Origin: Scenedesmus sp. PABB004
Lineage: Eukaryota
DNA length: 64,000 nucleotides
NCBI GenBank assembly: GCA_014905635.1
Contig: JABVCE010000004.1
Location: forward strand, 434,001 to 498,000
Reading direction: 5' to 3'
Below, piece after piece: positions 1 to 59,558 of this stretch (the stretch's first letter is position 1; every line of letters starts with the position of its first letter). Under the pieces are notes generated by a model, which saw only the letters and a list, made by a program, of their open reading frames with translations, was not told the origin of the DNA and made no database searches. The translations under genes and the position numbers were made by a program.

Positions 1-3000
1 TTGCGCCCCGCCGGCGGCTGCTTCTTCACCAGCACCAGCAGCACCTGCACGGCAGCCGCGCCGCGCCGCGCGGGCGCCGCGGCGCCGGGGAGGGGAGGGG
101 GGCGGGTCGGGCGCCGCCACCCCGCACGCGGCGCATGGCCGGCGCGGGGGGCTGGCGGCGCGCGCGCGAATGCGTGCGCGCGTGGCCGCGCGGCGTGCCT
201 GCAGGACGCTGTTGCTGAAGCGCGGCCCGATGGCCACGTACTCGAGCAGCCGCTCGATGTCGTCCTGGCGGCGGGCACGTGCGGGCGGTGTGGGCGTGCG
301 CGGGCGTGAGTGTGTGTGTGGGCGTGAGTGTGTGGGTGTGGGTGTGTGTGGGCTTGTGTGGGTGTGTGGGTGTGGGCGGGTGCGCGTGGCGGCGCCGTCA
401 TGTGGCTCTCCAAGTTGCTGGGCAGCCGGGAGCGTCACCGAGTACACACGCGGGGCTGCCTAGCAACCCCGGGAGCTGCATCACAGCGCCGCCACGCACG
501 CGCGCGCGCGCGTTGTGCCGCGACAGCCCCCGGCGCGAGCCCCCGAGACCCCGCAACAGCAGCCCCCGCCGCGGGCGGCGCACCAGGATGACGATGCTGA
601 GCGGCGACTTGTAGGCGTCCTCAAACACCTTGGTCACTGTGCTGCCCTTGGCGTGCTCCGCGTAGCCCACCATGTCCTCGGGGCTCACCACCTGGCGCGC
701 GGCGCGGCGCGGGGGCCGGGCGGGCGGCGCGGGCGGGCGGCGGCGCGGGCGGCGGCACGCGGGGGTCGGCGCGTGCGCGCCGCGTGCGCGGCACGTGCGC
801 CGCCGAGCCCAGCCAGCGCGGGCTGGCGCAGCCGCTCCTCGTCGGCCGCGCAGCCGGCCCGCGCAGCCTTGCCAGCACAGCCTCCTTCCCAGCACGCACA
901 CGCCGGCGCCCGCCCGCCCACGCGCGCACCTTGACAAACGGAAAGCCGCTCTCGATCGCCGCCGCGGCGGCGAGCGCGGTCTTGCCGCTGCCGCTCGGGC
1001 CCTCGAGCAGCACGCTCAGCAGCGGCGTCTTTTCGCTGTTCTGCACCTGCGCGCGCGCGCCGCGCACGCCGGGCGGAGGAGCCAGGCGGCGGCCGTCGGC
1101 GTGCGCTCCACGGCCGCGCGCGCCGCGTGCGTCGCGTGCGCAGCGCGCCGCGTGCGCCGCGCGCGCCTGCGTGACGAGCGTGCGCAGCGTGGACGCGAGG
1201 TGGCGGTACGCGTCGCCGTAGTCGATGACGCCGTGCACGAGGTGCCGCGACAGGCCCTCCGTGTTGGCGCCAAACGCGGGCACGACCTCGCCCAGCGCGG
1301 CGGCAAAGTCGGCGGCCGTGACCTGCGGCGCGCGCGGCCGGCGCGTCGGCGGGCGCGGCCGGACGCCGCGCGCGCGGCGCGCAAAGCTCCCTCGCCCCCA
1401 AAGCGGCCCGAGCAGCCCGGCACGCAGCCCCGCCGCGCGGCGCAGCCACGCCACACAGCGCAGCCCCGCGCGGCGCAGCCAGCCCGCGGCCAGCCAGCCC
1501 GCAGCCAAGCGGCGCAGCCCCGCGCGGCGCAGCCACCCCAGCGCGGCGCCGCCAGCTGCGCGGCCGCGCCTTGACGTTGTCCTCGTCGAGCGGCTTGTGG
1601 AGGTCGTTGATGTCGACGTTGCGGTTGAGCGCGTAGCTCGCCGCGCTCTTGACGAGGCCCTCAATCTCCGCGCCGCTGAAGTTGCGCGTCGCCTCGGCGA
1701 GCGCGGCGAGGTCGACGTCGGGCGACAGGAACGAGTTGGCCGACATCTGCGGCGGCGGCGGGCGCGGCGGCGGCGGTGGCGGGGGCGGCGGCGGCGGCGG
1801 CGGCGGCGGGGAGTGCTCAGAGCGCACGGGGCGCCGCTCGTGCGCGCGCCCCGCCGCGCCGGCCGCGCGCCCCGCGCCGCCGCCGCCGCCGCCGCCGCAC
1901 CCGGCTGGTGTGGATGGTGAGGATCTGCAGCCGCCCGCGCTCGTCGGGCAGCCCGATCTCGATCTGCACCTCCAGCCGCCCCGGGCGCAGCATCGCCTCG
2001 TCCAGCATGTCCTTCCTGCAAGCCGCGCGGCGCGCGGCGCGGCGGGCGCGCGCCTCCCTCGGCGCCGGCACGCGGAGCGGCGACGCAGCACGCGCAGCGC
2101 GCGCCGCACGCAAGCCTCTCCCCGCCCCGCCCCGCCCCGGCCGCCGCGCTGCGCGCGCTGTGCGCGTGCTGTGCGCGTGCTGTGCGCGTGCTGCGCGTGC
2201 TGCGCGCCTGTTGGTCATGCCGATGAGCAGTATGTTGTTGAGCGCGTCGACGCCGTCAATCTTGGTGAGCAGCTGGTTGACGATCGTGTCGTGCGTCGCC
2301 GTGCCGTCGCGCACGCTGCCGCGCTGGCGGCAGATCGCGTCGATCTCGTCAAAGATGATGATGTGCAGCTCCTGGCAGGGAGGGACGCACGCCGCAGCAC
2401 ACGCACGCACACGCGGGTGCGGGCGGGTCGGCGCCGGCGGCGGGCGGCGGCAGCGACAGGCGGCGGCGGCCCCGCGCGCGCCGCGCCGCGCGCCGCACCG
2501 ACGCATCGCCCTTCTCCTTGTACTCGGCCTCGGCCTCGCCGAAGAGGGCACGGATGTTTTCCTCGGCCTGGCCGACGTACTTGGACAGCACCTCGGGGCC
2601 GTTGACGACCTTGGGCTCGCGGCCGTTGAGCATCTTGCCGATCTGCCGCGCGATCAGCGTCTTGCCCGTCCCCGGCGGGCCGTGCAGCAGCATGCCCTGC
2701 GGAACAAGGATGTGGGTGGTGCGTGGCGCAGGCGGGCGCAGAGGGCGCGGGCCATCGCGGCGGGCGGTGGCGGCGGGGTGCGGGCGGCGGGCGCGGGCGG
2801 GCGGCGGCGCGCGCGCGAGAGATAGAGAGAGAAGGCGCGCGTGCTCGCCTTGACGTGCTGGATGCCGAGGCGCTGCACGATGCTCGGCGGGAAGACGCGG
2901 CTCGCAAACGCGCGGCGGAAGATCGCATCAAACTGCTTGTCGAGGCCGCCGATGCCGAGGGACTCAAAGTTGAGCGTCTTGGCCTTGAACAGCTGCGTCG

Positions 3001-4180
3001 TGGCAAAGCCCTTCTGGCCCGTGATCTTGATGTTCGAGTTGTCTGGCACGGGGCAGCGGGCGTGGGCGGGGCGTGGGCGCGCGGCGCGTGGGCGGGCGCG
3101 CGGGCGGGGGCGCCCGCCGCCGCTGGCTGGCAGCTCGCGAGGCAGCTCGCGAGGCAGCTCGCGAGGCGGCTCCCCCCCCCCCCTCCGCCCCGCGTGCTGC
3201 GCGCGCCGCGGGGGCAGGCTCACTGGCGTTGGTGAAGATGAAGGCGGTGTTGGCCGCGAGCGTCGCGCGGTGGACGTCGCGATTTGCGCCGTCCACGTCG
3301 ATCTGCAGGCTGCCCACCTGCAGCTTGTAGCTCGCGCCCTGCAGCTCAAACGCGAGCTGCTGCTCCGGCGTGAACACCTGCGCGGGCGCGGCGCGCGGGC
3401 GCGGCGTCGAGCCCCCGGCCGCCGCCCCGCCGCCGCGGGCAGGCCGCCGCGCCGGCCGCCGGCCCGCCGCCGGCGGGCCGCGCCGCGCGCCTGGCCCTTG
3501 AACATCTGCAGCAGGCGCTCGATGATGTCGCTGGCCGACAGCTCCGCCTTGACGTGGTCCTTCAGCCCCAGCACCTCTGCGTATAGCAGCCCCGCGCCGG
3601 GGAAGTGCGGCGGCGGCACAAAGACCGCCGCGTTGACCCGGTCCTGCACCGACACGCGCAGGCACTGCGCGCGGCGCGCGGGGGCAGCCGCGGTGGCGGC
3701 AGCGGCGGCGGCGGGTGAGCGCAGAGCCGCACGCGCCGCGCCGCCAACTGCCGCCCGGCCCGCTTCCCGCGCCCGCCGCCGGCGCAGCGGCGGCCACGCG
3801 CGCACCCGGCGCTGGATGGCATTGAAGCCGATCGAGCCAGGCGCGACTTGGGGATGCGGCGCGGCGGTGAACACGCTGCGGCGGCGGCGGCGGCCATGGC
3901 GGCGGTCCCGCGTCGGCCGCCGCGCGGGGCCGGCGCGGGCGGCGGCGCGCCAACCGCCGCGGCCGCTGCTCTCACAAGGGCCCAATCTCCAGGAACTGCG
4001 CGCTCGCCAGCGGGTCGTCGGGAGCCAGGTAGACGCAGTTGGTGAGGCTGGCAGCCTGCGGGCGTGATGCGGCCGCGGCCGCGTGGGCGGGCGCCGCGGC
4101 GCGGCGCGGCGCGGCGCGGCGCCGCTGCTGCGGCGCGCCTTGTCCGGGCAGTTGTCGGCGACGCGGGTGGTCTGCGCCAT
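1..4180 (-). CDS. NSF: Vesicle-fusing ATPase NSF/Sec18 (15 exons in window; 3' end lies beyond the window start)
   Basis: Spliced exons give [24 protein letters not shown]..., [25 protein letters not shown], Walker A GPPGTGKT, Walker [42 protein letters not shown]2 Walker A GPSGSGKT and [18 protein letters not shown], all diagnostic NSF motifs. 7 of 14 introns have GC donors. Confidence 0.97.
298..385. repeat. (GT)/(GGGTGT)-rich microsatellite inside an NSF intron
   Basis: gtgagtgtgtgtgtgggcgtgagtgtgtgggtgtgggtgtgtgtggg... read directly. Confidence 0.8.
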
Positions 4181-6720: not shown

Positions 6721-6752
<32 letters not shown>

Positions 6753-7607: not shown

Positions 7608-7662
7608 GGTTTTTGAGGGACGGCCAACCCCGCGCGCGCGTGCCGTGCGCTTCAGGCCTGTT

Positions 7663-9334: not shown

Positions 9335-9392
<58 letters not shown>

Positions 9393-15409: not shown

Positions 15410-17249
15410 TCACTCGCGCTGCGTGGTGCCGCCCCTGCTGCCGCTGCCGCCGCTGCCGCCGCCGCCCGGGCGCTGCTGCTTGTGCGCCCCGCCGCGCCCG
15501 CCGCCGCCGCCGCCGCCGCCGCCCGAGCTGGCCGCGGCGCCGCGCCACATGCCATGGTAGTCCACCGCGGCAGCGGCCAGCGCCGCGACGCACGGGGCCG
15601 TCATGTCGCGCGTGAGGAACCAGAGCCCGCCGAGCCACAAAAAGTCCAGCACCTGCGGCCCAGGGGCGCGGGCGCTGCGGGTGTTGGCGCCGCTCTCGCT
15701 CGCACGGCAGCCGCGGCCGCTCCCGCGCCGCGCGTGCGCGCGCGCGCAGCGGCGCTGCAGCTCCCGCGCCGCGCGCGCGCCTGCAGAGTGACAAAGAGGC
15801 TCGTCATCTCCTGCTCCTGCTCGCGCCAGCTCACGGCGACGGCCTTGAACGCGCGCGACGCGCGCGCCGCGTCGGCCTCCGCGTTGCCGCCCGCGCCGCT
15901 CGCGGTCAGCCGGTAGAACCTGGCGGCGCGTGCGGCGCGGAGGGACAGCGGGCTCGGCGCGTGCGCCGCCCGGCGTGGCCGCGCCGGCCACCACTCGGCG
16001 CGTCGCCGCCGGCGCTGGCTGCGCGCCGCGGCGCGGCGCGGCGCGCCGTGCCGCGCGCGGCGCCGCGCCGCGCGCCGCGCCGCGCCGCGCGCCGCGCCGC
16101 ACCTGTCTGCGTTTGCGACGGCATCGCCCACCACGCTGACCTGCTCCGGGTCGGCCATGAGCTCGGTCGAGCGCACCGCGCCCGACAAAAAGCCGGTGAA
16201 GAGCAGCGCGAGCGCAAAGCCGACGCCCTCAGGCATGGACACGCCGGTGGACCGCCCGATCGCGGCCGCGCTCCAGCCGAGCGAGGCGGTGAGCCCCGCC
16301 TGAGCGGCGGGGAGCATGAGGAACAGCGGCGGCAGCGTGTCGAGCACGACGTGCGCCGCGAGCTGGCCGGGGGCCATGCCCACGAGCCACGGCCGCGAGC
16401 TGTCCACGAGCGCGCGGTGCAGCGCGCCGACGGTCGGATTGGCCTCGTGCGTCGACGGCCGCCACGCGGCCCACTTGTACGCGACGAGCGGCAGCGCCGC
16501 GGCTGCGCCGGCCGCGGCCGCGCCGGCGCTGTGCAGCGAGAGCGACGCGCCGCCTGCGGGGCGGCCGGGCAGCAGCCGGTCAGGGAGAGGGGGGGGGGCA
16601 GGGTCGCCGGCGCGCGGCGCGCAGCTTCCTCCCGCCGCCGGCGCGCGGCGCTGCAGCGCCGCTCGCGAGCGCTGCTCGCGCGCAGCTGTCCTCTGGCGCG
16701 GCGCGCTGCGGGTCCTCCCGCCGCCGCTTGCTGCGCGGCGCGCACCCGCGGGGTCCTTGCCGCAGAGCCAGCAGATTGCTGTTGACGCGGTCATGAGCAC
16801 CGCGCCGAGCACGAGGTTGACCTGCAGCTTGTGCGCCGGCTCCTCCTCGAGCAGCATGTTATAATAGAGCTCCTCCTCGCCGTCGCTGCGCGGCGGGGCG
16901 GCGGCGCATGGGCGGGCGCGCGGGCGCCGCTGCCGCCGCCGCTGCTGCTCCGGCGGCCGCGCGGGCCCCCATTGCGTGCATGCGCCCCCCGCACGCACCC
17001 CACGCCGTTGATGAGCGACTGCAGGCGGTGTGCAGCGAGGAGATAGACGTCCGGCTGCTCTCTGCTCACGCTCGCGGCCCCATCCTGCTGCTGCTGCTCT
17101 CTGCTGCTGCCCTCGCCGGCGCTCGCCCGCATGCGCGTCGTCCGCGGCGCTCGCCGCAGGCACGGCGCTCCTGGCGGCGCGCCGCGGCCCCACGGGGCCT
17201 GGGGCGCGCGCGGCAGCTGCGAGCGCGGTAGTAGCGCGCTCGCACACAT
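15410..17249 (-). CDS. Putative plastid-targeted multi-pass membrane protein, degenerate CPBP/Abi (CAAX-protease)-like, 5 exons
   Basis: Transit-peptide-like N-terminus MCASALLPRSQLPRAP and several TM segments. FLWLGGLWFLTRDMTAPCVAALAAAAVDY resembles the CPBP C-terminal motif, but the catalytic EExxxR and His residues are absent. Confidence 0.6.
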
Positions 17250-17742: not shown

Positions 17743-30813
<13,071 letters not shown>

Positions 30814-34800: not shown

Positions 34801-34965
34801 CAGCACTGCGTCGATGTCCAGCGCGTTGCTGCCGCCCTGCGGCCCCCCCTCCGGCGCGGCGCCGATGCCAGCATCGCTGCCGCGTCCGCTGCCGCCACCG
34901 CCGCCGCCGCCGCCGCAGCTGCCGCCATCGCCGCTGCCAGCGGCGCCTCCGCTGCCTTGCGCCAT
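31766..34965 (-). CDS. Alpha/beta-hydrolase (lipase/PhaC-like fold, resembles the plant At1g15060 type), 10 exons, C-terminal PRL
   Basis: HPVILCPGLGSSGAYSFDLSPNVSLADYLAGQGWDVWTCELRG. Nucleophile elbow GHSMGG, acid GDRDRMCP and His HYGHFDILMG complete a Ser-Asp-His triad. Confidence 0.88.
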
Positions 34966-35496: not shown

Positions 35497-35557
35497 TCAG
35501 ATGGCCCCGGCCGCGGCGCTCAGATGGCCTTGGCCTTCTCAGATGGCCTTGGCCTTC
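35497..35557. repeat. 19-bp tandem duplication (plus a degenerate third copy) spanning the stop codon
   Basis: tcagatggccttggccttc at 35520-35538 and 35539-35557; tcagatggccccggcc at 35497. Confidence 0.9.
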
Positions 35558-38500: not shown

Positions 38501-41310
38501 CGGCGGCGCCTCGCCGGGCGCGAGGCCGTGCACGACATGCCCCGCCGCCGCGGCCTGCGCCTGGGAGCCAGCGGCGGCGGCGGTGGCGGCGGCAGCGGGG
38601 GAGCGTCAGTGGCGCACGGCGTGGCGCGGCGCGCCGGCAGCGGGGACGCGCGGCGAGGCGCGGCGGCGGCGCGTCGCGCACCATCGCGCGCGCGTGCTGC
38701 TGCTGGTTGGCGACCGCAGCGAGGCGCTGGCTGCGCATGCTGCTGAGCTTGTCGCGCACGTCCACCTCTTCCGGCTCGTCCCCGCGCGCGAGGCGCTTCT
38801 CTGCGCGTTTGGCGGCGCACGCGCACGCGCGGCGGCGCGGTCGGCGCGCCGCCCGGCACGCACGCTGCAGGGGCCGCCGCTGCGCAGATGCGCACGCCCG
38901 TGCACGCGCGCCGTCCGCGGGCGTGCCCCCACCCGCGCGCTTCTCCTCGGCGGCGCCAAACGCGTAGCTCACGTCCGGCAGCGTCGTGTGGACCACCACG
39001 CCGTCGCCGCCGAGCGCGGGGCCCAGTCGCTGCGCCGCGCAGTGAGGTCGAGCAGCAGCCAGCGGCTCTGGCTCACCCACAGCGGCGTGGGGCAGTCCTC
39101 GAGCGGGTGCGTCGCGCGGAAGCGCGGGTTGTGCACTGCGGCGCCGCGGGGCGGTGGGCGGCCGCGTGGGCGGCCGCGGCGCGCCGCGTGGGCGCCGCGC
39201 GCGGCGCGCCGCCCGCCCGCCCGCGCGCCGGCGGGCGCCGCCCGCGCGCACTCACGGTGCTGGGGCTGCAGCCGCAGGTGCGCCGCGACGAGCTGGCTCA
39301 GCTCGGTGCGCGTCTGCAGCACCGTCGCGGCGCGCGCGAGCGCAGCGGTGCCCTTGGTTCGGGGGCCGATGATCTTGAGCACGCGGCGGCTGAAGTCCTC
39401 AACCTCTGACAGGTACTGCGTCGCGGTCTTGGCCCAGTTGGACGACTGCCACGCGAGGTCGGAGATCTGGCGGCGCGCGTGCGTGTGTGTGTATTCGGGG
39501 GAGGGGCACGTCAGGTCAGGGAGGCCGGCGGCGGCGGCCAGCGCAGCGGCGTGGCGCTGCGCCCGGCCGCCCAGTCCGTGGGCCAGCCGGGGCGCAGCCG
39601 GGCCGCCCCTGGCCTCCTTCTCACGCACACCTGGTACTTTTTGATGCTGAGCGGCCAGCCCCCGTGCAGGCGGCCGCCGCCGTACACGGGCGCCGCCGGC
39701 TCCGCGCCCCACGCGGGGTTGGCGTAGCCGGGCTGCAGCTCGGGCATGTTGGACTGCCCGGCGAGCAGCTTGAGCTCGTGGTCACTGAACCCTAGGCGGT
39801 ACCCGTAACTCGGCAGGCTGGGGGACCACTTGGGGTTGACGACCAGCATCGTGTACCCGCCGTCCAGCGCGAGCGCGCCGACAAAGGAGTCAACAAACGG
39901 CTCGAGCTTCAGCACGTCAACCTGGGCGCGGCGCGGCGCGGAGCGGGCGGGCGGCGGCGCGGGCGGGGGCGGTCGGAGAGCGGGAGAGCCGCCGCCGCCC
40001 ACGCCGCCGCGCCGGGCCGCCGCGCGTGCCGCCGCGCCCGCGCGTGCCGCCGCGCCCGCGCGTGCCGCGCCTGCTGGTCGCCCTCCTCGTAGTCCGGGTC
40101 CACCGGCCGGCTGAACGCGGTGATCGCGCGCTCAAACGTGGCCAGCACCTCGCCCTTGGCCACGACCACGACGTTGACGCTCACGTTGAGGTGCACGTAG
40201 CTCGGCAGCGGGCTCGGCGGCAGCAGCGTGACCGCGGCCGTGCCCGCGCAGTGCCCTGGCGGCGGCGGCGCGGCGGCGGCGGCGCGCGGCGGCGCGCGTG
40301 GGCGGCGCGCCCGGCGGCGCTGCGCTGCCGGGGGCGCTGCCGGGGGCGCTGCTGGCGCGGCGCGGCGCTGCTGGCGCGGCGCACCGTCGAGGGAGCAGGA
40401 GAGCTCGCTGAGCGCGACGCGCGTGTGCGGCAGCACGTGGTCAACGTGCCGGAACCAACCGATCAGCTCCTCGCTGCTCACGTCCACCTGCGCTCGGCGC
40501 GCCCGCACGTCAGTCAGCGCCGCCGCGGCGGCGGCGCTGCGCGCGCGCGCTGCTCGCCCTCTCCCTCTCGCTCGCGTTCCCTGCCCCGCCGCCGCGCTCA
40601 CACCTTTGCGTTGCCGTCGCCCTGGAAGCCCACGAACACGAGGTTGAGCGGCACGCTCATGTGCAGCGCGTCGACGGGGTGCAGGCCCACGTACGAGGCC
40701 AGATTGGGTGCCGCCACGAACTCCTGCAAGCGGCGCGGCGTGTTGCGCTCCCCGTGCGCGCTTGCGCGGCTGGCGTCGCCGCCACCGCGGCTGCGGGGTG
40801 GCGTGCGCCCCGGCCGGCGCCGCGAGCGCACATCGAGGCTTTTGAACTCGCGCAGGTGCAGGTTCTGTATGCGCGTGAGCTCGTCGTTGTCCCACGACAG
40901 CGCGTTCTCGCCCTGCGCGCGGCGGCCGGCCTGAGCGTGCCGCGCACACGGTCCGCGCCCGCGGCCCGCAGCCCGCCGCGCGCACGCCGCGTGGCCCTGC
41001 TGCGCGCCCGGCCGCTCACGTCGTGGAACAGCTGCGATCCGGCGCCGGCCGGCGGCGGCGGCGGCCGCCTGCGGGCGGCCGCGGGCGGCGCAGCAGCGGT
41101 TGTCGGCCGCGGCCGCTGCGGGCGGCGCGGCTGGCAGCGCAGCACGATCGGCCGCCGGTCACACCTCCAGCGTCCTCGCTTCTCGTCCCTCGGCTTGGCC
41201 CCCGCGGCGCCCGCCGCCAGCAGCGCCAGGCCCAAGAGGAGGCAGGCTGCTGCTGATGGGCGCCCCCTCCCCGCCCGCCGGCGCCCCTGCCCGCGGTGCC
41301 GCCGGTCCAT
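35539..41310 (-). CDS. Large type-I ER/Golgi membrane protein, KNS3/At4g16180-family-like, 21 exons
   Basis: Signal peptide CLLLGLALLAAGAAG, VPLNLVFVGFQGDGN...LIGWFRHVDHVLPHTRV, VPVFVFELDRDVPVLIDEHY, LQHLGGVLPPHLGY...HDWLWSVGAHP. C-terminal TM followed by KKKAKAI* (KxKxx ER-retrieval motif). Family assignment is from memory of the motifs. Confidence 0.72.
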
Positions 41311-41754
41311 GCTTCACGAAAACCTCATGACTGATCGAAAGGGCGTGCTGCGGGGCCGTTTGCTCGACGCTAGCAGTGGGCAGCAGCAGCTGCTGCTCTG
41401 GCGCTCGGCGCTTGCTGGTTATCGGCCTGGCGACGGTTCGGGACCGATGTTGTGTGTCGGCGCCACAATCCGCGGCGCGGCAGGCAGCGGCGGCGGCGGC
41501 GGTTGAGCGCCCGCCGCGCCGCCCGTCGCGCCGTGCGCTCTGCCCCGCCTCCCGCACCCCCCAGCCCCATACCCGCCGCCCGGACGCCAGCCGCCAGCCC
41601 GCGCAGTCCCGAGCGCCGCCAGCAGCCGCACACGCACACGGCCGCGCCGCCGCTGCTGCGCCGCATGCACGGCTGCCCCCGCACCTAGCCGCCGCCCGCG
41701 CCAGCCCCGTCTGCCGCCCCGCCTCCCCGCCTGTCCTGACCGACGCGGGGCAGC

Positions 41755-43003
41755 ATGCGGCGCATCTTTGGCGCGCCGAAGAAGAAGGAGCCGGCGCCGA
41801 CGCTCGAGCAGGCGGGCGACCGCCTGACCGGCCGCGGCGACCGCCTGGACGAGCAGATCAACAAGCTCGACGCGCAGCTGGTCAAGTTCCGGGAGCAGAT
41901 CAAGAAGACGCGCCCGGGGCCGGGGCAGGAGGCGCTCAAGCGCCGCGCGCTCACGGTGCGGCGCTGCACGCCGGGGCGGCGCGGGCGGGCGCTGCCGCCG
42001 CCGTGCGCGGCGGCGCGCCGCGCCTGCCGGCAGCGCTTGCAGCGCCCGACGGCGCGCCGACCGGCGCCCTGGCGCCGCCGCCGCCGCCGCCGCAGGTGCT
42101 CAAGCAGAAGCGCATGTACGAGCAGCAGCGCGAGACGCTCTACGCGCAGCAGTTCAACATGGAGCAGACGCGCTTCACGGTCGAGTCGATACAGGACACG
42201 GTGCAGGTGCGGCGCCCCGCCGGCCGGCGGACACGACGCACGCGACGGCGCAGGGCCTCCCGCGCGCAGAAGCCGCGCGCCGCGCCGCGCGGCGCCGCGC
42301 CGCGCCCCGCCGTCGCGCCACGCCGCCCCCTGCCCGCTGCCGCGCGGCCGCCCGCCGCCGCCGCGCGCAGACGGTGCAGGCGCTCAAGGCGGCCAACACC
42401 CAGATGAAGGGCGCAATGAAGGCCAACAAGGAGCTGGACCTCAGCTTCATTGACAAGCTCCAGGCGCGCGCGCTGCACACGCGACGGGACAGCGGCGCCG
42501 CCCGCCCGCGCGCGCAGCCCACGCCGGCTGCGCCGCGCGCCCGCCCAACGCCGCGCGCACCCACCCGCGCCGCGCCGCGCGCAGGAGGACCTGGCCGACA
42601 TGGCCGACCTGACGGGCGAGATCAACGAGGCGATGGGGCAGAGCTACGCCATCCCCGACGACGTCGACGAGGCAGACCTCATGGCCGAGCTCGACGCGCT
42701 CGAGGGAGACCTCGCGCTTGAGGACGCCGCCGGCGCGGGGCCGTCCTACCTGCAGGCGCGCCGCACGGGGGCGGGGCGCGCGGGGCGGGGCGCGCGGGGG
42801 CGGGGCGCGCGGGGGCGGGGCGCGCCGAGCGGCGTGTCCTGGGCGGGGCGCCGCGCCGGCCGTGCCGCGCCGCGCCGGCCGCGCCGCGCCGACACCGCGC
42901 CTGCCGCCGCGCGCAGGAGCCGGAGCTGCCGGAGCTGCCGGCGGCGCCGCAGGGCGAGGCGGAGGAGGAGCTGGGGCTGCCGGCGGTGGCGCAGAAGACC
43001 TGA
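41755..43003 (+). CDS. VPS60: ESCRT-III SNF7-family protein VPS60/CHMP5, 5 exons
   Basis: MRRIFGAPKKKEPAPTL, LDEQINKLDAQL, KRRALTVLKQKRMYEQQRETLYAQQFNMEQ, EINEAMGQSYAIPDDVDEADLMAELDAL, PSYLQ. Confidence 0.93.
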
Positions 43004-43127: not shown

Positions 43128-44819
43128 CTAAGCGCACGCGAAGCTGCCAAACGCGCCAAAGCCAGCCGCGCCGCGTTCGTCGTCCTCCTCGCCCCCGCTG
43201 CTGGCGGCCGGCGCCTGCCTGGGCGCCTTGAACTGCCGCCGCGCCACGGGCGCGGGCGGCGCGGCGCCCCCGCCGCCGCGGCCCAGCAGCGCGGCCGCCG
43301 CCGCGGCGCGCCCTCGCGGTGGCGCGGCGCCGCCGCCAGCGCTGCCGTTGGCGCTGTAGCCCAGTCCGCACAGCTCGTCCGCCAGCGAGGGCCGCCGCCC
43401 GTTCGCCGCCGCGCCGGCGGCGCCCAGCGGCGCGGGCGGCGGCGGCGGCGCGGGCGCCTGCTGCAGCTTGCCGACGCAGCGGTGCGCGAGCCGCGCGTAG
43501 CGCCGCATGTGCGCGATGCTGGCGATGCCGCCGGGCTCCGCATTCTCGTCGTTGCTGCCGCCCAGGCTGCTGCTGCCGCCGCCGTCGCTGTCGCCCGCGG
43601 TGCCCGCGCGCTCCGCGGCGGCGGCGCCACCGCACCCGCCGCCGTCGCGCGCGCCGCCGTGGCCCAGCTGCTGCGCGGCGCACCCGCCCGGGCCGGGGCT
43701 CGGGCTGCCGCCGAGGCCCAGCACGTCGTCGCCGGCGTCCACGCCGCCGGGCCGCCGCTGCCCGATGCCCAGGCAGCGCGGGGGTTGGCTGCCGCCGGCG
43801 CCGCCGTGCCGCGCCGGCGCCGGGCGCCAGCCGTCAAGGAGCTGCTGCCGCTGCTCCTGCTGCTGCAGGCCGCGGCGCAGCACGTCCAGCGGCCTGCGCG
43901 TCTCGCCGGCCCCGGCCCCGGCCCCGCCGCCGCCCCGCAGCGACTGCTGCAGCTGCCGCCAGCTCTGGCTGCCGCCGAGTGCCAGCGGGTGGGGGCGCGG
44001 GGGCGAGACCACCTCGTCGTCGGCCTCCTCCGACCCCGGCCCCGCGGGGCTGCCCAGGCTGCCGAGGCTGCCCAGGGGGTCGCTGCCGCCCAGCGCGCCC
44101 TGCGAGCCGCCCAGGCCGCGCTCCAGCACCAGCACCTGCCCGCCGCCCCCCGCGCCGCCGGCGCTCGCGAAGAAGCGGCTGCTGCTGCTGCCGCCCAGCC
44201 GCGGCCAGCACAGCGGCACGGCGCGCTCCGGCGGCGGCGTGGGCAGGCTGCCGTCCGAGCACGCCGGCGACGCCTGCTGCGACGCGCCGTTGATGAGTGC
44301 GGCCAGCGCGCTCACCGCCGCGCCGCGCCCGCCGCCGGGCGCCAGGGACGCCAGCGGCTGCGTCAGCTGCGTGCCGCCGCCAAAGCCGCCGCCGCCGAGG
44401 GCGGGCTCGGCGCCCAGGCTGCAGTCGGCGCCGAGGCTGCCGAGCCCGAGGTCGCTGCTGGCGCCGGGCAGCGCCTGGCTGCTGGCGAGGCTGCCGCCGA
44501 GGCAGCCCGCTCCCGCGCCGGACGGCCCGAGCAGGTCCGAGCTGCCGGCGGTGCCGCACAGCGTGCTGCTGCTGCCGAGCGGGTCGGCGCTGCCGCCGGC
44601 CGGCAGGCCCTGCTGCGGGTCGGTGAGCTCCATGCTCATCGCGCTGCCGCCTTCCTGCTGCAGCTGCAGCTGGTCGTCCAGCGAGCCCGGGGTGGCCAGG
44701 CCGTCGCCGACACCGTCGTCGCCCAGCGAGCCGGCCGCGGCGCCGGCGCCCGGCTGCTCGTCGCGCAGGCGCAGCTTCTTGGCCGGCGGCAGGCCTCCGT
44801 CGCCCGCGGCGTTGCGCGG

Positions 44820-44871
<52 letters not shown>

Positions 44872-47300
44872 GCCGGCTCGCGCAGCTCCGCCAGCAGCGC
44901 CCGCTTGTCCGCCTCCTCCTGCTGCTGCCGCTGCGCCTGCTGCTCGCGCAGCGCCGCCAGCGCCTGCATGATGCTGTCGTGCATGCGCTGCACCGCGGCC
45001 TGCGGCGGCTCGGGCGCGGGCTTGGGCGCCGGCGCCGGCGCCGCGTGCTGCGGCGCGCCCGCCGCCGGTGGCTGCTCCCTGCCCGCCGGCGCCGGCACAA
45101 AGAAGCGCGCGATGCCCAGCCCGGACTTGCGCCGCGGCCCGGCCGCGGCGCCACTGCCGGCCGCCGGCTTGCTGCTGCCGCTGCCGCTGGCCGCGCCGCC
45201 GGCCGCGCCAGCACCCCAGGCGAGCCGCTGCTGCTGCTGGTGCTGCCCGCCCGGCTGCCGGCGGCTCATGCCGATGCGGGGCCGGCCGCCGCTGGCGCCG
45301 TCGCCGCCGCCGCCGCCAGAGGCGCCGGGCGCCGGCCCGCCCGAGCCGGCGCCGCCGCCTGCGCCCAGCGCGAGCGGGTGCGGCGCCGCCGCGAGCGGCC
45401 GGCTCAGCTGCGCCGCGATGTGGGGCGGCGGGTTGCGGCAGCCGGCAAAGATGGCGTCCAGGTCGTACGGCTCGTGTCGGTTGGGGTCGAGCCGGCCTGG
45501 ACGGGCGCGCGCGGCAGCGCGGGGCGTCGGCCGGCAGGGCGCGCGCCCCCGCGCGCAGCGGTTGCGCGGCGGCAGGGCCGCACCCTCTGCGATGCCGCGC
45601 GCCACATCGGGCGGCAGGTCGGGCCCCAGGAAGTCCAGGCCCGCCGCCTGCTGCGTCGCCTCGAGGTGCTGCAGCGCGGCCGGCACGTCGACGTCCGCGC
45701 CGCCCACGCCGCCGCCGGGGAGCGGCGAGAGGTGCACCAGCGCCTGGCGCGGCGGCGGGTCAGGCTGGGCCCGCGCCGGGCTGCGCGGGCGCCCCTCACA
45801 GTCCAGGCCGCGCCGCTGCCGCACCTTGGCCGTGGGGCAGTACACGCGGCAGTGCCGGAACGCCCAGAGCGCGAGCTGGAAGCGCACCTCGTACTCGGGC
45901 GGCACGCGCGTGCCGTTGAAGCGAAGCATCTTGAGCACCTGCGCAGCCGCGCACGCACGCACACAGCGTCGGACGCGCGCGCCGCGCCTGGCGCCGCGCC
46001 GCTGGCGCCGCGCCGCTGGCGCCGCGCCGCTGGCGCCGCGTTTCGCGCCGCCGCGCCTTGGTGAAGGCCCGGTACTTGCGCAGCAGGCCGTGGGCCTTCT
46101 TGAGCCCGATGCCGGGCAGCTGCGGCAGGTAGTCGCAGCCGGCCATGATGCAGAGCTGCGCAAACGTGTCGGCCGTGAAGCCGTCGAGCGGCAGGCCGGC
46201 GCAGCGCGGCAGGTCCTCGAGACACACCTCCTCGCCCGCGCCCGCGCGGTCGAGCTTGTACAGCACGCTGCGGCGGCGGCAGACGCGGCGGCGCAGCGCG
46301 GCGCGTCAGGCGGCGCGGCGCGCCCCTGGCTCTCTCACTGAACGGCGTGCCTCGCCGCGCGGGGCGCACCGCGGGCAGCTGTACGCGAGCAGGTCCGAGT
46401 CCTCGGTGATGACGAGGCCCACGTCGCCGCGGCGCGCCAGGTAGGCCATCTGCGCGTCCGCCTCGTACGGCGCGACGATGAAGGCGACGCCCAGCGCCTT
46501 GAGCTCCTGCGCGGCAGCACCCCGGCGGCGCCGCGGCGCGGCGGTCGCGCCGCTGGCTGCGCTGCGCGGGGGGCGCCGCGCCTCCGCGCGCCCTCCCGCG
46601 CGCGCCGCGCCGCGCCGCGCCGCGCCGCGCCTCGATCACGTGCTTGGCCATGGCGGGCGTGACGTCGACGCAGCGCTGGTAGCACTCGACCGCCGCGGCC
46701 ACGTTGCCGGCCGCGAGGTGCGCCGCCGCCTTCTCGCGCGCCTCGGCGCGCGCCCTGCGGCGCGGGCGCGCGGCGCGCGGGCTCGGTGCGGGCGCGCGGC
46801 CGGCGAGCGCGCCGCGGGGCGGACGGCGCACCTGTGCCGCGCGCTCTCCTCCTCGCCCTTGATCGGCAGCCGGCCGCCGTCAAACACCACCACCGGCTCC
46901 ACGCCATGCCCGCGCAGCAGCTGGACGCGCGACACAAAGTACGCCACGTACCTGCGCCGGCGCCGTCAGCGGCGGCAGTGAGGTGAGCGCCGCCGCGGCA
47001 GCACGCGCGCGGTCGGGTGAGCGCCGCGCTGTCAGCGGCGCGTTCTGCCGCGGCGGCGGCGCGCCGCGACCGCGGCGCGCGGGCGCAGCGCCCGCCCCCC
47101 GCTCCCACGCAGCGCGCTGCCGCGGTCGGCGCGGCGCACTTGTCGGTCCACGCGCCCTCGCACAGCTCGCGCGCGCAGCAGTACGCGCCCTTGTGCAGCC
47201 ACGAGTAGCCGTCCACCGCCGCACGCTGCCCCGCGTACTTGCTCAGCTGCACCGGCCGCGCGATGGGCTTGAGCGCCGGGAGGAGGCCGTTGATGCCCAT
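43128..47300 (-). CDS. EXO1: Exonuclease 1 (XPG/RAD2 family), 8 exons, long disordered C-terminus
   Basis: [84 protein letters not shown]. Confidence 0.96.
44823..44870 (-). repeat. (CAG)n polyQ tract in the last EXO1 exon
   Basis: About 16 CTG units on the + strand. Confidence 0.9.
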
Positions 47301-47932: not shown

Positions 47933-49737
47933 ATGGCCAGCTGGCGGCTCATCAGCGAGACGGCGAAGCAGAAATGGGGCATGAGCATGGAGAAGAACTT
48001 CAGGGTGCGGCGGCGGCGGCCGGGGGGCCCCGGGGGCGCGGGTCGGGGCGTCCAGTACAGGGCGGGCCGGTCGCGCGGCCCTCCCGGCCGGCCCCGGCCC
48101 CGCAGCCGGCCGGCGGCCCCCTTCCGGCGGCAGCTTGCCCGCCTTAGGCCTCCACGCGCCCTGGCGCAGGTGACCAGCAACACGAGGAACGAGGCGATGT
48201 TCAGGGAGGCGACGACCTTCGCCGGCTTCCTGCAGATCGTTGAGAAGGAGCTCACGCAGTGGCAGCGCGACATCGACTGTGAGCGGGGGGCCGGGGGGAG
48301 CTGCCGCGCCGGCGCGCGTGGCGGGAGAGCCCGGCCGCCGGCGCGCGCGCGGCGCGGCGCGGCCAGCGCCGCGCGCGCGCGAATGCGCGCGCCGCCCCAC
48401 ACACACCCGCCGCCCCTGCTGCCGCCGCCCCTGCTCTGCCGCCGCCCCCGCAACTGCGCAGCGAGCTTCACCAACATCCGCACCATCATGCTCTCCCCGC
48501 TGCCGCGCGTGTACGAGGAGGGCCACAACGGCGCGGCGGTGCCGAGCGAGCCGGAGCCGACCATGGTCGGCGGCGACGTCGCGGTCGAGCAGCTCGTCTC
48601 GGCGGCGGTGGAGACGCGCAAGCGGCTGGACGTGGAGGTCATCCAGCCCATCAAGCAGTGGATGGTGGCCTACCGCACCATCGCGGTGCGCGCGCCGCGC
48701 GGCGCGGGCCGCGAGGCGCCCGCGGCGCCAGCGCCAGCGCGCGCCAGCGCGCCAGCCGGCGGCGGCGCCCCCCTGAAAGCGCGCGCGCGCGCGCGCGCGC
48801 GCGCCCGCTGCGCAGGAGCGCATGCGCCGCCTGGAGGCGCTGCGCCTGGAGCTGGACTCGCGCCGCCGCACGGTTGCGGACCTGCAGGGCCGCTGCGAGC
48901 GCGTGCGCGCCAACCTCGGCACCACGCGCGCGCGCGGCGAGGTCGACATGGAGCTCACGCTGCGCAAGATGCAGCACAAGGAGGACAAGATGCAGCGCAC
49001 CGCGTCCCAGGCACGCGCGCGCTCCGTCGGCGGCAGCCTCGGCGCGCGTCGCCTTTAACCTGTTCCCCGCCCGCGCCTCGCCGCGCCTCCCCGCTTGCTT
49101 CTCACCTCGCCCCGCCGCCGTGGCGCCGCCGCCGTGGCGCCGCGCAGTTCCAGGAGATGGAGCTCACGGTGTACAACAGCCTCTTCACGCTCATCAAGGA
49201 CACCAGCGTGCTGCGCGACTACGCCGCGGCCGCGCTGCTCATCGTCAACGTGCGCACCGCGCACCGCCGCCGCCGCGCCGCCCGCCCTCCTGCCGGGCTG
49301 ACCAGCTAAACCTGCGCCGCCCGCTCGCCCGGCTTCGCGCCGCGCGGCCGCAGGAGTGCTTCTCCGCGGGCTACGCGTCGTTCAACAGCCTCGAGCAGGC
49401 GCAGTACAGCACGACCGCGGGCGCCGCGGGCGTGGCGGCGGCCTACGGCGGCGGCGGCGAGGCGAACAAGTACGACCCCCGCCTGCCGGGCGGCGAGAAG
49501 GCCGGCGGCGGCAAGGGCGGCGGCCGCACGCCGCGCGGCGGCGCGTACGCCGCGAGCGCCGGCGGCGACGGCGACACCGGCGCGGCGGGGCGCGACTTTG
49601 ACCAGGCCGGCGGCGGCGGCGGCGGCGCCGGCTACGACCCGTACCACCACGACACGCGGCTGGGGTCGCAGGAGATGGACGGCGGCGGCTACGCCGCGGG
49701 CCGCGCCAACTACTGGGCCACCGCCGCTGCGCACTGA
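47933..49737 (+). CDS. Coiled-coil, BAR-domain-like hypothetical protein, 6 exons
   Basis: Clean spliced ORF MASWRLISETAKQKWGM... with long helical segments LDVEVIQPIKQWMVAYRTIAERMRRLEALRLELDSRRR, reminiscent of BAR helix 2. Confidence 0.65.
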
Positions 49738-58154: not shown

Positions 58155-59558
58155 ATGGCCAAGTTTGGGGAGGGCGACCCTCGCTGGCTGGTGGAGAAGC
58201 GGGAGGACGGCACCAACGTCAACTCCTGGCACTGGAGCGAGAAGGATGTCATGGAGTGGAGCCGGGGCCGCCTGGGCCAGCTGTTCGGCGGCATGGTGCT
58301 GCTGCCGGCGGGCGGCGCCGGCCCGAGCGCGACGGTGACGGGCCTGCGCTCGCTCGAGGGCGACGCGGTGCTCAACATGCGCAAGGGCAAGCTCATCGCG
58401 AGCTACGAGCTCGCGGTCAAGCTGGACTGGGCCGGCACGGCCGCCGACGGCGCGGCGGCGTCGGGAGTGCTCGAGCTGCCGTGCGTCGCGGGGCGCGGCG
58501 TGCGCGTCCGGCCGCGCCCGGCAGCCGCGGCGCCGCCGCCGCGCAGCTCAGCCCGCGCTGCGCTGCGCCGCCGCTGCGCTGCTGCTACAGGTACGTGGCG
58601 GACGAAAACCACGACGAGGCGCCCGAGCTGCGCGTGGTGCTGCCGGTCGACAGCGCCGCGGGGCAGGCGGTCAAGGCGGCCATCCTCGCGGGCGGCAAGC
58701 AGGCGCGCGGCGCGGCGCGGCTCGCGGCGCGCGCTCGCAGTGGCGCGGCGCAGCCAGCGTCCGGCGGCCGGCGCGGCGCGCCGACGCCTCGCCCCCGCGC
58801 CGCCGCCGCCGCAGCCGGTGCTGGGCGCGATCGCCACGTACGTGAGAGAGCTGCGCGAGGGCGTGCCCGGCAAGCCCGGCACCGCCGGCGCGGCGGCGGC
58901 GCCCGGCGGCGGCGCGGCGGCCAACGGCGGCGCCGCGCCCGCGGCGACGCCCGCGGCGGCGGCGCCGGCGGCGGCGCCGGCGCGGCCGAGCGGCGCCGCG
59001 CCCGCCGGCCGCAGCAAGCGGTCGGTGGAGCTGACCGAGCGCTTCTACTGCCGCAAGGAGGATGTTTACAGCTGCTTTGTCGACGCGGGCCGCATCCAGG
59101 CGTTCACGCAGAGCCCCGCCGTCGTCGACGCCGTGCCGGGCGGCAAGTTCAGCCTCTTTGGCGGCTCCATCACGGGCACCTACGAGGAGCTCGCGCCGGG
59201 GCAGCGCCTCGTCATGGCATGGCGCTTCAGCAGCTGGGAGGACGGCTGCGAGAGCAAGGCGCGGCGCGCCGCGGGGCCGCCGCCGCGCGCGCCCTGAGGC
59301 GGCGGCCGCCGCCGCCCGGCCCGCCGCGCCGCGCCGCGCCGCGCCGCGCCCGACCCGGCGCGCCCCCCGCCGCCGGTGCCGTCGCAGGTGGAGCTGTTGT
59401 TTGAGGAGCCGGAGCCGGGCAACACCGTGGTGCGGCTGAAGCACACCGGCCTGCCGGAGCACGACCGCTTCGGGCACGCCGTGACGGAGCAGGTGGAGGC
59501 GGGCTGGCGCGGCCAGATCTTCAGCCGCCTGCGCGCCGTGTTCGGATACGGCGTGTGA
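58155..59558 (+). CDS. AHA1: Activator of Hsp90 ATPase (Aha1_N + AHSA1 domains), 4 exons
   Basis: MAKFGEGDPRWLVEKREDGTNVNSWHWSEKD, LNMRKGKLIASYEL, GGKFSLFGGSITG, WRFSSWEDG, GWRGQIFSRLRAVFGYG. Confidence 0.96.

What the first reader, a model, noticed from the sequence alone, without database searches (positions are those of the whole stretch)
198..59260. About a quarter of introns use GC donors, and only after exon-terminal AG: an apparently re-tuned 5' splice-site rule
Seen in sequence: hand-splicing the intron-containing genes gives about 121 introns, about 31 of them GC-AG (NSF 7/14, PI4KA 7/27, ER membrane protein 5/20, hydrolase 3/9, VPS60 2/4, EXO1 2/7, AHA1 2/3, others 3). Every GC donor follows an exon ending in AG, with consensus AG|GC(G/A)(C/A)G. 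After AG-ending exons, GC (~31) is about as common as GT (~26); after the ~64 other exon ends it never occurs. Many cases are forced by conserved motifs: [20 protein letters not shown] (donor 2848) and GMTNR|KD (2207); PI4KA VLAIQ|VI (26911) and [12 protein letters not shown] (27347). Further donors: 4138, 3490, 1569, 1166, 198, 27706, 28178, 42464, 42756, 58703, 59259. Established: GC-AG is about 1% of introns in most eukaryotes and usually needs a near-perfect U1 match; high rates are known in a few protist lineages such as dinoflagellates. Here the intronic part (GCGCGC) matches canonical U1 poorly. Inference: a relaxed or variant U1/U5/U6 recognition makes +2 T/C nearly neutral when -2/-1 is AG, allowing GC pressure to convert donors.
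Basis: partly seen in the sequence, partly recalled or inferred. Interest (0 to 1): 0.8.

Follow-up and report, generated by a model that had tools for sequence, protein, structure and literature searches.

The report
Many GC-AG introns, only after (C/A)AG
In this extremely GC-rich green-algal DNA about a quarter of the introns begin with GC instead of GT, and only where the preceding exon ends in (C/A)AG; this looks like the ordinary compensation rule of splice-site recognition pushed to an extreme by GC pressure, as already seen in a few other GC-rich algae.

Summary
With protein-to-genome spliced alignment against homologues, four genes (NSF, PI4KA C-terminal part, a DUF7906 protein, an alpha/beta hydrolase) give 52 well-placed introns: 19 GC-AG and 33 GT-AG. 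All 19 GC donors follow an exon ending in AG. The table is AG-ending 19 GC / 9 GT, other endings 0 GC / 24 GT (Fisher p = 1.4e-7). When all 16 donor dinucleotides were allowed at equal cost, the closest homologues still chose the same GT and GC sites. Twelve more AG|GC introns rest on an ab initio parser, Pfam or PDB coordinates.

No RNA-seq run and no whole genome were available, so splicing itself and the snRNAs are untested.

The "re-tuned spliceosome" reading is not needed. GC donors follow CAG or AAG in 30 of 31 cases, although GAG makes up 42% of NAG codons. They have as many pairs to a canonical U1 5' end as GT donors. Among GT donors, +4A also compensates for a missing -1G. Two orthologous introns are GT in less GC-rich relatives.

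High GC-AG shares are published for Emiliania and pelagophytes. This is a new member of a known kind.

The parts
1..4180 (-). NSF (vesicle-fusing ATPase) gene, 3' end cut by the window edge. 14 introns, 7 of them GC-AG: 4056-4138, 3378-3490, 2697-2848, 2016-2207, 1323-1569, 1047-1166, 45-198.
   Evidence: Spliced alignment to P0003, P0004, P0022, P0023 and P0011, including the 16-dinucleotide control. Intron coordinates.
17743..28418 (+). PI4KA (phosphatidylinositol 4-kinase alpha) gene, about 27-29 introns. Validated GC-AG introns: 26911-27073, 27347-27558, 27706-27843, 28178-28316. Probable only (poorly conserved N-terminal part): 17888-18022, 20184-20320, 21430-21540.
   Evidence: Homologue P0129. 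Ab initio models. In the N-terminal part the homologue supports an intron within 6-15 nt of each of the three sites but cannot fix the boundary.
35539..41570 (-). GC-AG introns: 39922-40070, 38209-38407, 37534-37637, 36164-36279, 35698-35817.
   Evidence: Homologues P0272, P0273, P0278 and P0279 carry precomputed PF25483. Spliced alignments and control.
31766..34928 (-). Alpha/beta-hydrolase gene, 9 introns. GC-AG introns: 32683-32822, 32493-32622, 32083-32203.
   Evidence: Abhydrolase_1 hit on exon 33234-33476. Homologues P0306, P0308, P0309 and P0311.
41755..43003 (+). Snf7-family (VPS60/CHMP5-like) gene, 4 introns. GC-AG introns: 42464-42584, 42756-42916.
   Evidence: Ab initio model. Snf7 profile positions of flanking exons: up to about 82 before, from about 111 after, with a 31-aa exon between; consistent within about 3 residues. 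No in-frame GT within 30 nt.
43128..47300 (-). EXO1-like (XPG_N / XPG_I) gene, 7 credible introns. GC-AG introns: 46507-46630 (after GAG) and 45939-46056.
   Evidence: Pfam. Human EXO1 chain numbering abuts across 46630: exon 3 ends at residue 135 and exon 4 starts at 136. 46056 rests on the ab initio model only; the downstream exon had no PDB hit.
58155..59558 (+). AHA1 (Hsp90 co-chaperone) gene, 3 introns. GC-AG introns: 58703-58814, 59259-59387.
   Evidence: Aha1_N and AHSA1 hits. The AHSA1 profile is continuous across 59259: 74 plus 4 residues, then 79. 58703 is ab initio only.
15653..15780 (-). Probable GC-AG intron (ctgcag|GCGCGC) in an unnamed gene at 15410-17132.
   Evidence: Ab initio parser, predicted with and without use of the exon side. 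Length 128, not a multiple of 3.
30059..30230 (+). Probable GC-AG intron (gccaag|GCGCGC) in an unnamed membrane-like gene at 28536-30813.
   Evidence: Ab initio parser. Length 172.
49011..49147 (+). Possible GC-AG intron (tcccag|GCACGC) in an unnamed gene at 47933-49737. The least certain of the 31.
   Evidence: The restricted parser picks 49011. The unrestricted run picked an in-frame non-AG GC 33 nt downstream, at 49044. Sequence shown.

Best explanation
These are ordinary major-spliceosome (U2-type) introns of a chlorophycean green alga related to Scenedesmaceae, whose nuclear DNA here is about 80% G+C.

A strong GC-directed mutation or biased-conversion pressure erodes every T and A that is not needed. 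Introns are 87% GC with 7% T, and codon third positions are 95% GC.

The 5' splice site has to keep roughly 4-5 Watson-Crick pairs with the 5' end of U1 snRNA, and later contacts with U5 and U6. Where the exon ends in (C/A)AG, the exon side supplies two or three of those pairs. The +2 U:A pair then becomes dispensable and drifts to C, giving (C/A)AG|GCGCG. Where the exon does not end in AG, +2 T is indispensable and is kept.

Because third codon positions are almost never A, AG-ending exons occur almost only at phase 0 (codons CAG, AAG, GAG) and occasionally at phase 2. GC donors are therefore confined to those phases.

Shown: the donor positions and the conditional table; the MAG preference; equal U1 complementarity between donor classes; the exon/intron seesaw among GT donors; GT at two orthologous positions in less GC-rich relatives.

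Inferred: that U1 has the canonical 5' end, that the sites are spliced as modelled, and that the direction of change was GT to GC.
For: Placement by homology:
- 52 validated introns give 19 GC, all after AG, and 0 GC among 24 non-AG exon ends (p = 1.4e-7).
- The 16-dinucleotide control returns GT or GC only at 14 of 14 NSF junctions with P0003 and 10 of 10 with P0023, at 9 of 10 junctions from 25651 onward in the PI4KA C-terminal part, and at 8 of 9 hydrolase junctions with P0306.
- Allowing only GT lowers alignment scores by 284 (NSF), 253-279 (DUF7906) and 117-136 (hydrolase).
- 15 of 19 GC introns are not multiples of 3, so retention would break conserved downstream frames.

Decoy test with a parser that ignores the exon side:
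- A second donor dinucleotide directly after AG is used 32 times for GC, against 0-10 times for each of 14 decoys.

Compensation:
- Position -3 of GC donors is C 22, A 8, G 1, although GAG is 41.6% of NAG codons (p = 1.6e-6).
- Mean Watson-Crick pairs to the canonical U1 5' end are 5.05 (GC after AG), 4.62 (GT after non-AG) and 5.22 (GT after AG).
- Among 104 GT donors, +4A occurs in 9 of 28 when -1 is not G and in 7 of 76 when it is (p = 0.011).

Phase: 0 of 10 phase-1 exon ends are AG; 18 of 19 GC introns are phase 0.

GC pressure: composition. Orthologous DUF7906 introns in contigs of 53-70% GC are GT where the window has GC, at alignment columns 236 and 593.

Precedent (passages read):
- 56% GC-AG of 241 curated junctions in E. 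huxleyi (PMC4028052).
- About 14-17% in pelagophytes, attributed to GC content (bioRxiv 10.1101/2024.10.30.620910).
- A GTGCGTG donor consensus in the green alga Ostreococcus (PMC2483917).
Against: - There is no RNA evidence; no RNA run was listed.
- The U1, U5 and U6 genes of this organism were not seen, so 'canonical U1' is assumed from general knowledge.
- On the intron side GC donors are not closer to the U1 complement than GT donors. +4 is C in 30 of 31 and A in 1 of 31. This differs from the classical mammalian AG|GCAAGT pattern, and the budget model explains it only indirectly: with AG present, +4A is also dispensable.
- The pair-count difference between classes is small, and it was computed on sites partly chosen by programs of my own.
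- The Spearman correlation (rho = -0.53) includes ab initio sites for which GC was restricted to AG, so it is partly circular. Only the GT-only seesaw test is independent.
- One homologue each preferred a non-AG GC site at two junctions: P0272 chose 41007 instead of 41019, and P0306 chose 31943 instead of 32015.
- Two DUF7906 junctions (39076 against 39017, and 38681 against 38687/38693) remained ambiguous and were left out of the table.
Confidence: 0.75

Rival explanations
1. The spliceosome of this lineage has changed: a variant U1 5' end, U6 ACAGAGA box or U5 loop, or altered U1C/Prp8-type proteins. As a result +2C costs less than in other eukaryotes.
For: - The share of GC donors after AG (19 of 28) is far above the roughly 1% usual in plants (PMC6310983, passage).
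- The intronic part G(C/T)GCG(C/G) pairs poorly with a canonical U1 at +4 and +6 in all classes.
- +4C is enriched above intron background, 30 of 31 GC donors against 47% C in introns.
- Irimia and Roy raised the same possibility for Ostreococcus GTGCGTG donors (PMC2483917, passage).
Against: - The exon-side requirement is exactly the canonical U1 complement, (C/A)AG.
- +4A, the canonical partner of U1 psi5, is what compensates for a missing -1G among GT donors.
- Total complementarity to a canonical U1 is the same across classes.
- GC pressure alone gives high GC-AG shares in unrelated GC-rich algae.
- No snRNA gene could be examined.
Confidence: 0.12
2. The GC donors are artefacts of gene modelling. 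The true donors would be nearby in-frame GT sites, or the segments would be retained coding sequence.
For: - 18 of the 31 GC donors have an in-frame GT within 30 nt.
- My ab initio parser produced false AG|GC introns, for example 34197 (108 nt), which the Tetradesmus homologues read through.
- It also produced many non-AG GC 'introns' at decoy level, 32 of 47 with lengths divisible by 3.
- No RNA data are available.
Against: - In the four validated genes the GT alternatives delete or insert 2-10 conserved residues and cost 117-284 score units.
- The equal-cost 16-dinucleotide control still picks GC.
- 15 of 19 GC introns are not multiples of 3.
- 13 of 31 have no in-frame GT within 30 nt.
- AG|GC use is 32, against 0-10 for the decoys.
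Confidence: 0.04
3. The GC donors are deliberately weak sites kept for regulated splicing or intron retention, as proposed for some animal GC-AG introns, rather than a neutral by-product of GC pressure.
For: - GC donors have been linked to alternative splicing in animals (PMC2490688, passage).
- In E. huxleyi high intron retention accompanies GC donors (PMC4028052, passage).
Against: - The GC introns sit in housekeeping genes and inside conserved catalytic motifs, such as the NSF P-loop and the PI4K catalytic loop.
- They make up two thirds of all AG-ending junctions. That is too many and too uniform for gene-specific regulation.
- Orthologous positions are plain GT in relatives.
Confidence: 0.08

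Closest known systems
GC-AG introns of Emiliania huxleyi (haptophyte; PMC4028052)
   Same: A GC-rich algal genome in which GC donors are a large fraction of all donors, with canonical AG acceptors. The authors attribute the shift to genomic GC content (passages).
   Different: The Emiliania share is higher (56-61% against about 23-25% here) at lower genomic GC (65% against about 80% in this window). It is a different eukaryotic supergroup. In the passages I read, no dependence on the last exon bases is described. GA donors are also reported there, and none was found here.
GC-AG introns of pelagophytes (Aureococcus anophagefferens, Pelagomonas calceolata; bioRxiv 10.1101/2024.10.30.620910)
   Same: About 14-17% predicted GC-AG, explained by high GC content. 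A lower-GC relative has 0.32% (passage). This parallels the window against its less GC-rich relatives.
   Different: Stramenopiles with few introns per gene. The values come from gene prediction. No exon-context rule appears in the passage I read.
Classical GC-AG donors of animals and plants (about 1% of introns; compensation rule)
   Same: A U2-type intron in which the T to C change at +2 is tolerated because the rest of the site fits the U1-complementary consensus more closely (PMC2490688, passage). Here that means (C/A)AG before 30 of 31 GC donors.
   Different: The frequency is about 20 times higher here. Compensation is wholly on the exon side, and +4 and +6 are C rather than the A and T of GCAAGT.
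GTGCG(T) donor consensus of green algae such as Ostreococcus lucimarinus (Irimia and Roy 2008, PMC2483917)
   Same: The intronic +3 to +5 'GCG' signature with +4C, described there as atypical (passage), is the same as in both GT and GC donors here.
   Different: Ostreococcus is intron-poor, with very strong signals and GT donors. 'GC-AG' has 0 occurrences in that paper's main text.

Membership tests
U2-type (major spliceosome) GC-AG introns | The intron starts with GC and ends with AG, at a position where homologous proteins are continuous. | tested here: met
   19 introns in 4 genes were placed by spliced alignment, including an equal-cost 16-dinucleotide donor control. Acceptor AG was imposed by my aligner, not tested.
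U2-type (major spliceosome) GC-AG introns | The other donor positions fit the U1-complementary consensus at least as well as in GT donors (compensation). | tested here: met
   Exon side: AG in 19 of 19 validated donors, and C or A at -3 in 30 of 31. Mean Watson-Crick pairs 5.05 against 4.62. Intron side: not closer to consensus, +4A in 1 of 31.
U2-type (major spliceosome) GC-AG introns | Not U12-type, that is, no (A/G)TATCCTT donor box. | tested here: met
   All 31 donors read GC(G/A)(C/A)G. The U12 box as a criterion is recalled knowledge, not taken from any call.
U2-type (major spliceosome) GC-AG introns | The intron is removed from the mRNA at exactly these sites. | not testable with these tools
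   No RNA run was listed for the window. No protein of the same species appeared in the searches; best identities were 97% (NSF exon), 89% (DUF7906 exon), 87% (PI4KA exon) and 85% (hydrolase exon).
GC-rich algal genomes with a high GC-AG share (Emiliania, pelagophytes) | High genomic G+C and GC-AG at 10% of introns or more. | tested here: met
   79.5% G+C. 31 GC-AG of about 135 modelled introns in the window, and 19 of 52 in the validated set. Window only; the genome-wide rate is unknown.
GC-rich algal genomes with a high GC-AG share (Emiliania, pelagophytes) | The GC-AG share falls in less GC-rich relatives. | tested here: inconclusive
   One gene only. DUF7906 orthologues on metagenome contigs of 53-70% GC show at most one credible GC donor each (L002 gcacag|GCAAGG), against 5 in the window. 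Other GC calls there lie at poorly aligned spots.
Lineage with altered U1/U6 recognition | Changed U1 5' end or U6 ACAGAGA box. | not testable with these tools
   No Rfam family reached threshold in the window or in the related loci. No genome is held.

The most novel reading that the evidence does not exclude
This chlorophycean lineage carries a real change in 5' splice-site recognition, in an snRNA or in a protein such as U1C or Prp8. The change lowers the cost of C at +2 and of C at +4/+6, so that exon-side CAG plus +1G, +3G and +5G suffice. That would make it a natural reduced-code 5' splice site in an intron-rich organism.
Probability: 0.12. Interest if true: 0.7.

Novelty: new member of a known kind. 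Interest (0 to 1): 0.45.

Why it matters
Gene prediction. Predictors that allow only GT donors will mis-model roughly a quarter of the introns of this organism and of similar very GC-rich algae. In NSF and PI4KA that would delete or shift residues next to catalytic motifs.

Splicing evolution. The near all-or-none dependence of GC donors on (C/A)AG is a clean natural read-out of how many U1 contacts a 5' splice site needs. C at +2 is at 68% after AG, against about 88% expected if neutral, and at 0 of 24 otherwise. It also shows how codon usage (GC3 of 95%) indirectly restricts which intron phases can carry GC donors.

Prior reports. In four literature searches I found high GC-AG shares described for a haptophyte and for pelagophytes, and none for a green alga. 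The library does not hold most subscription journals, and supplementary tables of plant-wide surveys were not read.

Tried and rejected
- RNA evidence. The look-up of sequencing runs (kind rna, window 26000-35999) listed no RNA holder.
- Whole genome. None is held, so there is no genome-wide tabulation and no snRNA search.
- Rfam. Nothing reached threshold in the window or in six of the seven related loci (L005 not scanned).
- Earlier notes of this scan on this genome: none.
- PI4KA N-terminal two thirds. The best homologue, P0129, is too diverged, and the aligner over-fits with many short GC or other 'introns'. These junctions were not counted as validated.
- First ab initio parser, without antisense states. 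It chained the whole window into giant genes and was replaced. One search was an unfinished draft that computed nothing.
- Unrestricted parser. It predicted 41 non-AG GC introns. I rejected these as a class because they do not exceed decoy dinucleotides (47 against 15-70), 32 of 47 have lengths divisible by 3, and one known case (2812) contradicts homology (2848).
- Four further AG|GC predictions (7206, 19704, 34197, 43457). I set these aside as doubtful: three of the four have lengths divisible by 3, three lie in weak or low-complexity regions, and 34197 is read through by homologues.
- Pfam on 97 single exons. It named only 8 genes, and most short exons gave nothing. At E up to 10, exons 58592-58702, 42371-42463, 42917-43000 and 45825-45938 still gave nothing.
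- PDB search with EXO1 exon 45825-45938: no hit, so donor 46056 lacks homology support.
- U12-type introns: rejected from the donor sequences.
- Paper PMC55748 (Thanaraj and Clark) is not held. Burset et al. 2000 was not read. Both are cited only through PMC2490688.


Full report
WHAT THE WINDOW IS

The 64-kb window has 79.5% G+C and no N.

Its genes are nearest to those of Sphaeropleales green algae:
- An NSF exon is 97% identical to Tetradesmus obliquus and 95% to Scenedesmus sp..
- A DUF7906 exon is 88-89% identical to scenedesmacean transcripts and proteins.
- A hydrolase exon is 85% identical to Tetradesmus.
- The Tetradesmus NSF and hydrolase homologues carry neighbouring locus tags, OEZ86_001171 and OEZ86_001173, which suggests conserved linkage.

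No protein of the same species turned up. No whole genome is held. No RNA run was listed. Everything below therefore rests on DNA, homology and statistics.

In the NSF gene, exons are 67% GC with 95% GC at third codon positions. Introns are 86% GC with 7% T.

CHECKING THE OBSERVATION BY HOMOLOGY

I wrote a protein-to-genome spliced aligner in which the set of permitted donor dinucleotides can be chosen. The acceptor is always AG.

NSF (window 1-4180, minus strand):
- The Tetradesmus homologue P0003 gives 14 introns, 7 GT and 7 GC.
- The key control allows all 16 dinucleotides at equal cost. P0003 (14 of 14) and P0023 (10 of 10) still return only these GT and GC sites. P0004, P0022 and P0011 each deviate at one junction, and the distant P0008 at four.
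- Restricting donors to GT lowers the score by 284 with P0003. It uses GTs 6-9 nt upstream that delete conserved residues.

PI4KA (best homologue P0129):
- In the conserved C-terminal part the same control picks GT at 25651, 26008, 26307, 26644 and 27922, and GC at 26911, 27347, 27706 and 28178.
- The one other pick there is a 36-nt in-frame skip, a gap-fitting artefact.
- The N-terminal two thirds are too diverged, so the aligner over-fits. I did not count those junctions as validated.

- GC donors 40070, 38407, 37637 and 35817 are chosen with P0273, P0272 and P0278 in the control. 36279 is chosen with two of the three.

Hydrolase:
- There are 9 introns, with GC at 32822, 32622 and 32203, in the control with four of five homologues.

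What I left out, or decided by majority:
- Two DUF7906 junctions where GT and non-AG GC alternatives lie 6-60 nt apart (39076 against 39017; 38681 against 38687/38693), and the 5'-most junction, were left out.
- 41019 (GT) was preferred over 41007 (GC), which only P0272 chose.
- 32015 (GT) was preferred over 31943 (GC), which only P0306 chose.

The validated set is 52 introns:
- After exons ending in AG: 19 GC and 9 GT.
- After other exon ends: 0 GC and 24 GT.
- Fisher p = 1.4e-7.
- 15 of the 19 GC introns have lengths not divisible by 3, so retaining them would destroy the conserved downstream frames.

EXTENDING TO THE OTHER GENES

I wrote an ab initio parser. It uses codon usage against an intron Markov model, keeps frame across introns, has antisense-coding states, and has a donor signal built only from intron positions +1 to +6. 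It does not see the exon side.

Accuracy:
- After self-training it found 12 of 14 NSF donors and 9 of 9 PI4KA C-terminal donors.
- It predicted 27 GC donors after AG and 41 GC donors not after AG.

A decoy experiment shows what these numbers mean. I replaced GC by each of 14 other dinucleotides (both strands; genes scoring 60 or more):
- The second dinucleotide is used after AG 32 times for GC, but only 0-10 times for the decoys.
- It is used after non-AG 47 times for GC and 15-70 times for the decoys.
- The non-AG GC 'introns' are also mostly multiples of 3 (32 of 47), against 11 of 32 for AG|GC. This is what in-frame low-complexity coding segments mis-called as introns would give.
- One of them, 2812, contradicts the homology result (2848).
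- So only the AG|GC class rises above noise.

Restricting GC donors to AG contexts makes the NSF model exact, 14 of 14.

The parser also makes false AG|GC calls. 34197 (108 nt) is read through by the Tetradesmus homologues. I set aside that call and three other doubtful ones.

Single-exon Pfam searches named these genes:
- Snf7 (41755-43003)
- XPG_N / XPG_I, EXO1-like (43128-47300)
- Aha1 (58155-59558)
- alpha/beta hydrolase
- Usp
- a sulfotransferase
- an EF-hand gene

Support for individual junctions in these genes:
- The AHSA1 profile is continuous across donor 59259.
- Human EXO1 chain numbering is continuous across the GC intron at 46630: exon 3 runs to residue 135 and exon 4 starts at 136.
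- Donor 46056 has no homology support.
- 49011 is ambiguous against 49044.

My tally is 19 validated plus 12 probable, giving 31 GC-AG introns. The total is about 135 modelled introns.

WHAT THE RULE LOOKS LIKE IN DETAIL

All donors, GT and GC alike, share +1G, +3G (87-100%), +4C (A second) and +5G. The same 'GTGCG' signature has been published as atypical for Ostreococcus (PMC2483917, passage).

GC donors need more than AG:
- Position -3 is C in 22, A in 8 and G in 1 of 31.
- GAG is 41.6% of the NAG codons in the modelled coding sequence (binomial p = 1.6e-6).
- (C/A)AG is precisely the exon part of the U1-complementary consensus (PMC2490688, passage).

Watson-Crick pairs between -3..+6 and a canonical U1 5' end (assumed from general knowledge):
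- GC donors average 5.05.
- GT donors after non-AG exons average 4.62.
- GT donors after AG average 5.22.

Independent of any GC donor, among 104 GT donors +4A is present in 9 of 28 when -1 is not G and in 7 of 76 when it is (p = 0.011). This is the usual exon/intron seesaw, and it points to the canonical U (psi) partner at +4.

The overall negative correlation between exon-side and intron-side pairs (rho = -0.53) is partly circular. That data set used the AG restriction for GC donors.

Phase:
- None of the 10 phase-1 exon ends is AG. Position -2 would be a third codon position, which is A in only 1.3% of codons.
- 18 of 19 GC introns are phase 0.

Position +2 is C in 68% of AG-ending junctions, against C/(C+T) = 0.88 in intron interiors. 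It is close to neutral there and strongly constrained elsewhere. This step is inference.

RELATIVES

One scan of metagenome contigs with a DUF7906 alignment returned seven loci of 53-70% GC.

Mapped onto the common alignment:
- Column 236: the window's cagcag|GCGCGG corresponds to cagcag|GTGCGG in L006 and gatgcc|GT in L002.
- Column 593: the window's ctgcag|GC corresponds to ctcaag|GT in L003 and gccagg|GT in L005.
- The donor at 35817 probably matches an AG|GTGAGT site in L003. I inferred this by eye from a 4-nt shift.
- Conversely, L002 has gcacag|GCAAGG where the window has GT.
- Most other GC calls in those loci sit at poorly aligned places, and I do not trust them.

This is one gene and a handful of positions. 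It fits T-to-C turnover at AG-ending exons under GC pressure but does not prove the direction of change.

COMPARISON WITH WHAT IS KNOWN

High GC-AG shares have been reported elsewhere:
- Emiliania huxleyi: 56% of 241 curated junctions and 61% of Cufflinks junctions; genome 65% GC (PMC4028052, passages).
- Aureococcus and Pelagomonas: about 14-17%, attributed to GC content (bioRxiv 10.1101/2024.10.30.620910, passage).
- Across 121 plant genomes, algae included, the average is about 1.2% (PMC6310983, passages).

That GC donors compensate by fitting the consensus more closely is textbook knowledge (PMC2490688, passage).

In four searches I found no report of a high GC-AG share in a green alga. 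In the passages I read I also found no near-absolute dependence on exon-terminal (C/A)AG. I did not read supplements or the figure logos.

VERDICT

Near-neutrality of +2 after AG, and conversion under GC pressure, fit the data. A re-tuned or variant snRNA is not needed, and the (C/A)AG and +4A compensation patterns speak mildly against it. It could not be tested directly.

I file this as a new member of a known kind. It is of moderate interest, chiefly for gene annotation of very GC-rich algae and as a clean natural measure of 5' splice-site pairing requirements.

Noticed in passing
whole window; NSF 1-4180 as example: G+C is extreme for nuclear eukaryotic DNA, 79.5% overall. Introns (86-87% GC, about 7% T) are more GC-rich than exons (67% GC), and third codon positions are 95% GC. 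Stop-free frames are therefore everywhere, and ORF lists are useless for gene finding here.
   Followed up: partly
window 1-4180 and 31766-34928: The best Tetradesmus obliquus homologues of the NSF gene and the hydrolase gene carry locus tags OEZ86_001171 and OEZ86_001173. This suggests conserved linkage, although about 27 kb and several genes, including PI4KA, lie between them in this window.
   Followed up: no
The named homologues listed are all green algae, mostly chlorophycean. None of its 18 scanned exons gave a Pfam hit on its own.
   Followed up: partly
window 19393-19560; 2149-2200; 300-380; 3120-3160: Short tandem repeats lie inside introns or low-complexity coding sequence. They include a 3-nt-periodic run that gives dozens of staggered tblastn hits around 19393-19560, and 10-12-nt units such as those at 2149-2200 in an NSF intron.
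   Followed up: no
e.g. 34090-34197, 43233-43457, 58838-59014, 45000-45098: In-frame GC-rich, low-complexity coding segments (Ala/Gly/Arg/Gln-rich linkers) are compositionally intron-like. My parser mis-called them as introns with lengths divisible by 3. Any automatic annotation of this genome is likely to make the same error.
   Followed up: partly
L002:14602 (metagenome contig, 65% GC): A related alga has what looks like a classical strong-consensus GC donor, gcacag|GCAAGG, at a DUF7906 intron position where the window and three other relatives have GT.
   Followed up: no
acceptors throughout, e.g.: Acceptors are almost uniformly (G/C)CAG. Position -3 is C in 51 of 52 validated introns, and there is no visible polypyrimidine tract in introns with about 7% T. 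Branch-point signals were not examined.
   Followed up: no
window 59893-63999 (+) and 5018-11321 (+): Weakly scoring ab initio gene models with no Pfam hits and many doubtful short introns. It remains open whether these are real, fast-evolving low-complexity proteins or non-coding sequence.
   Followed up: no
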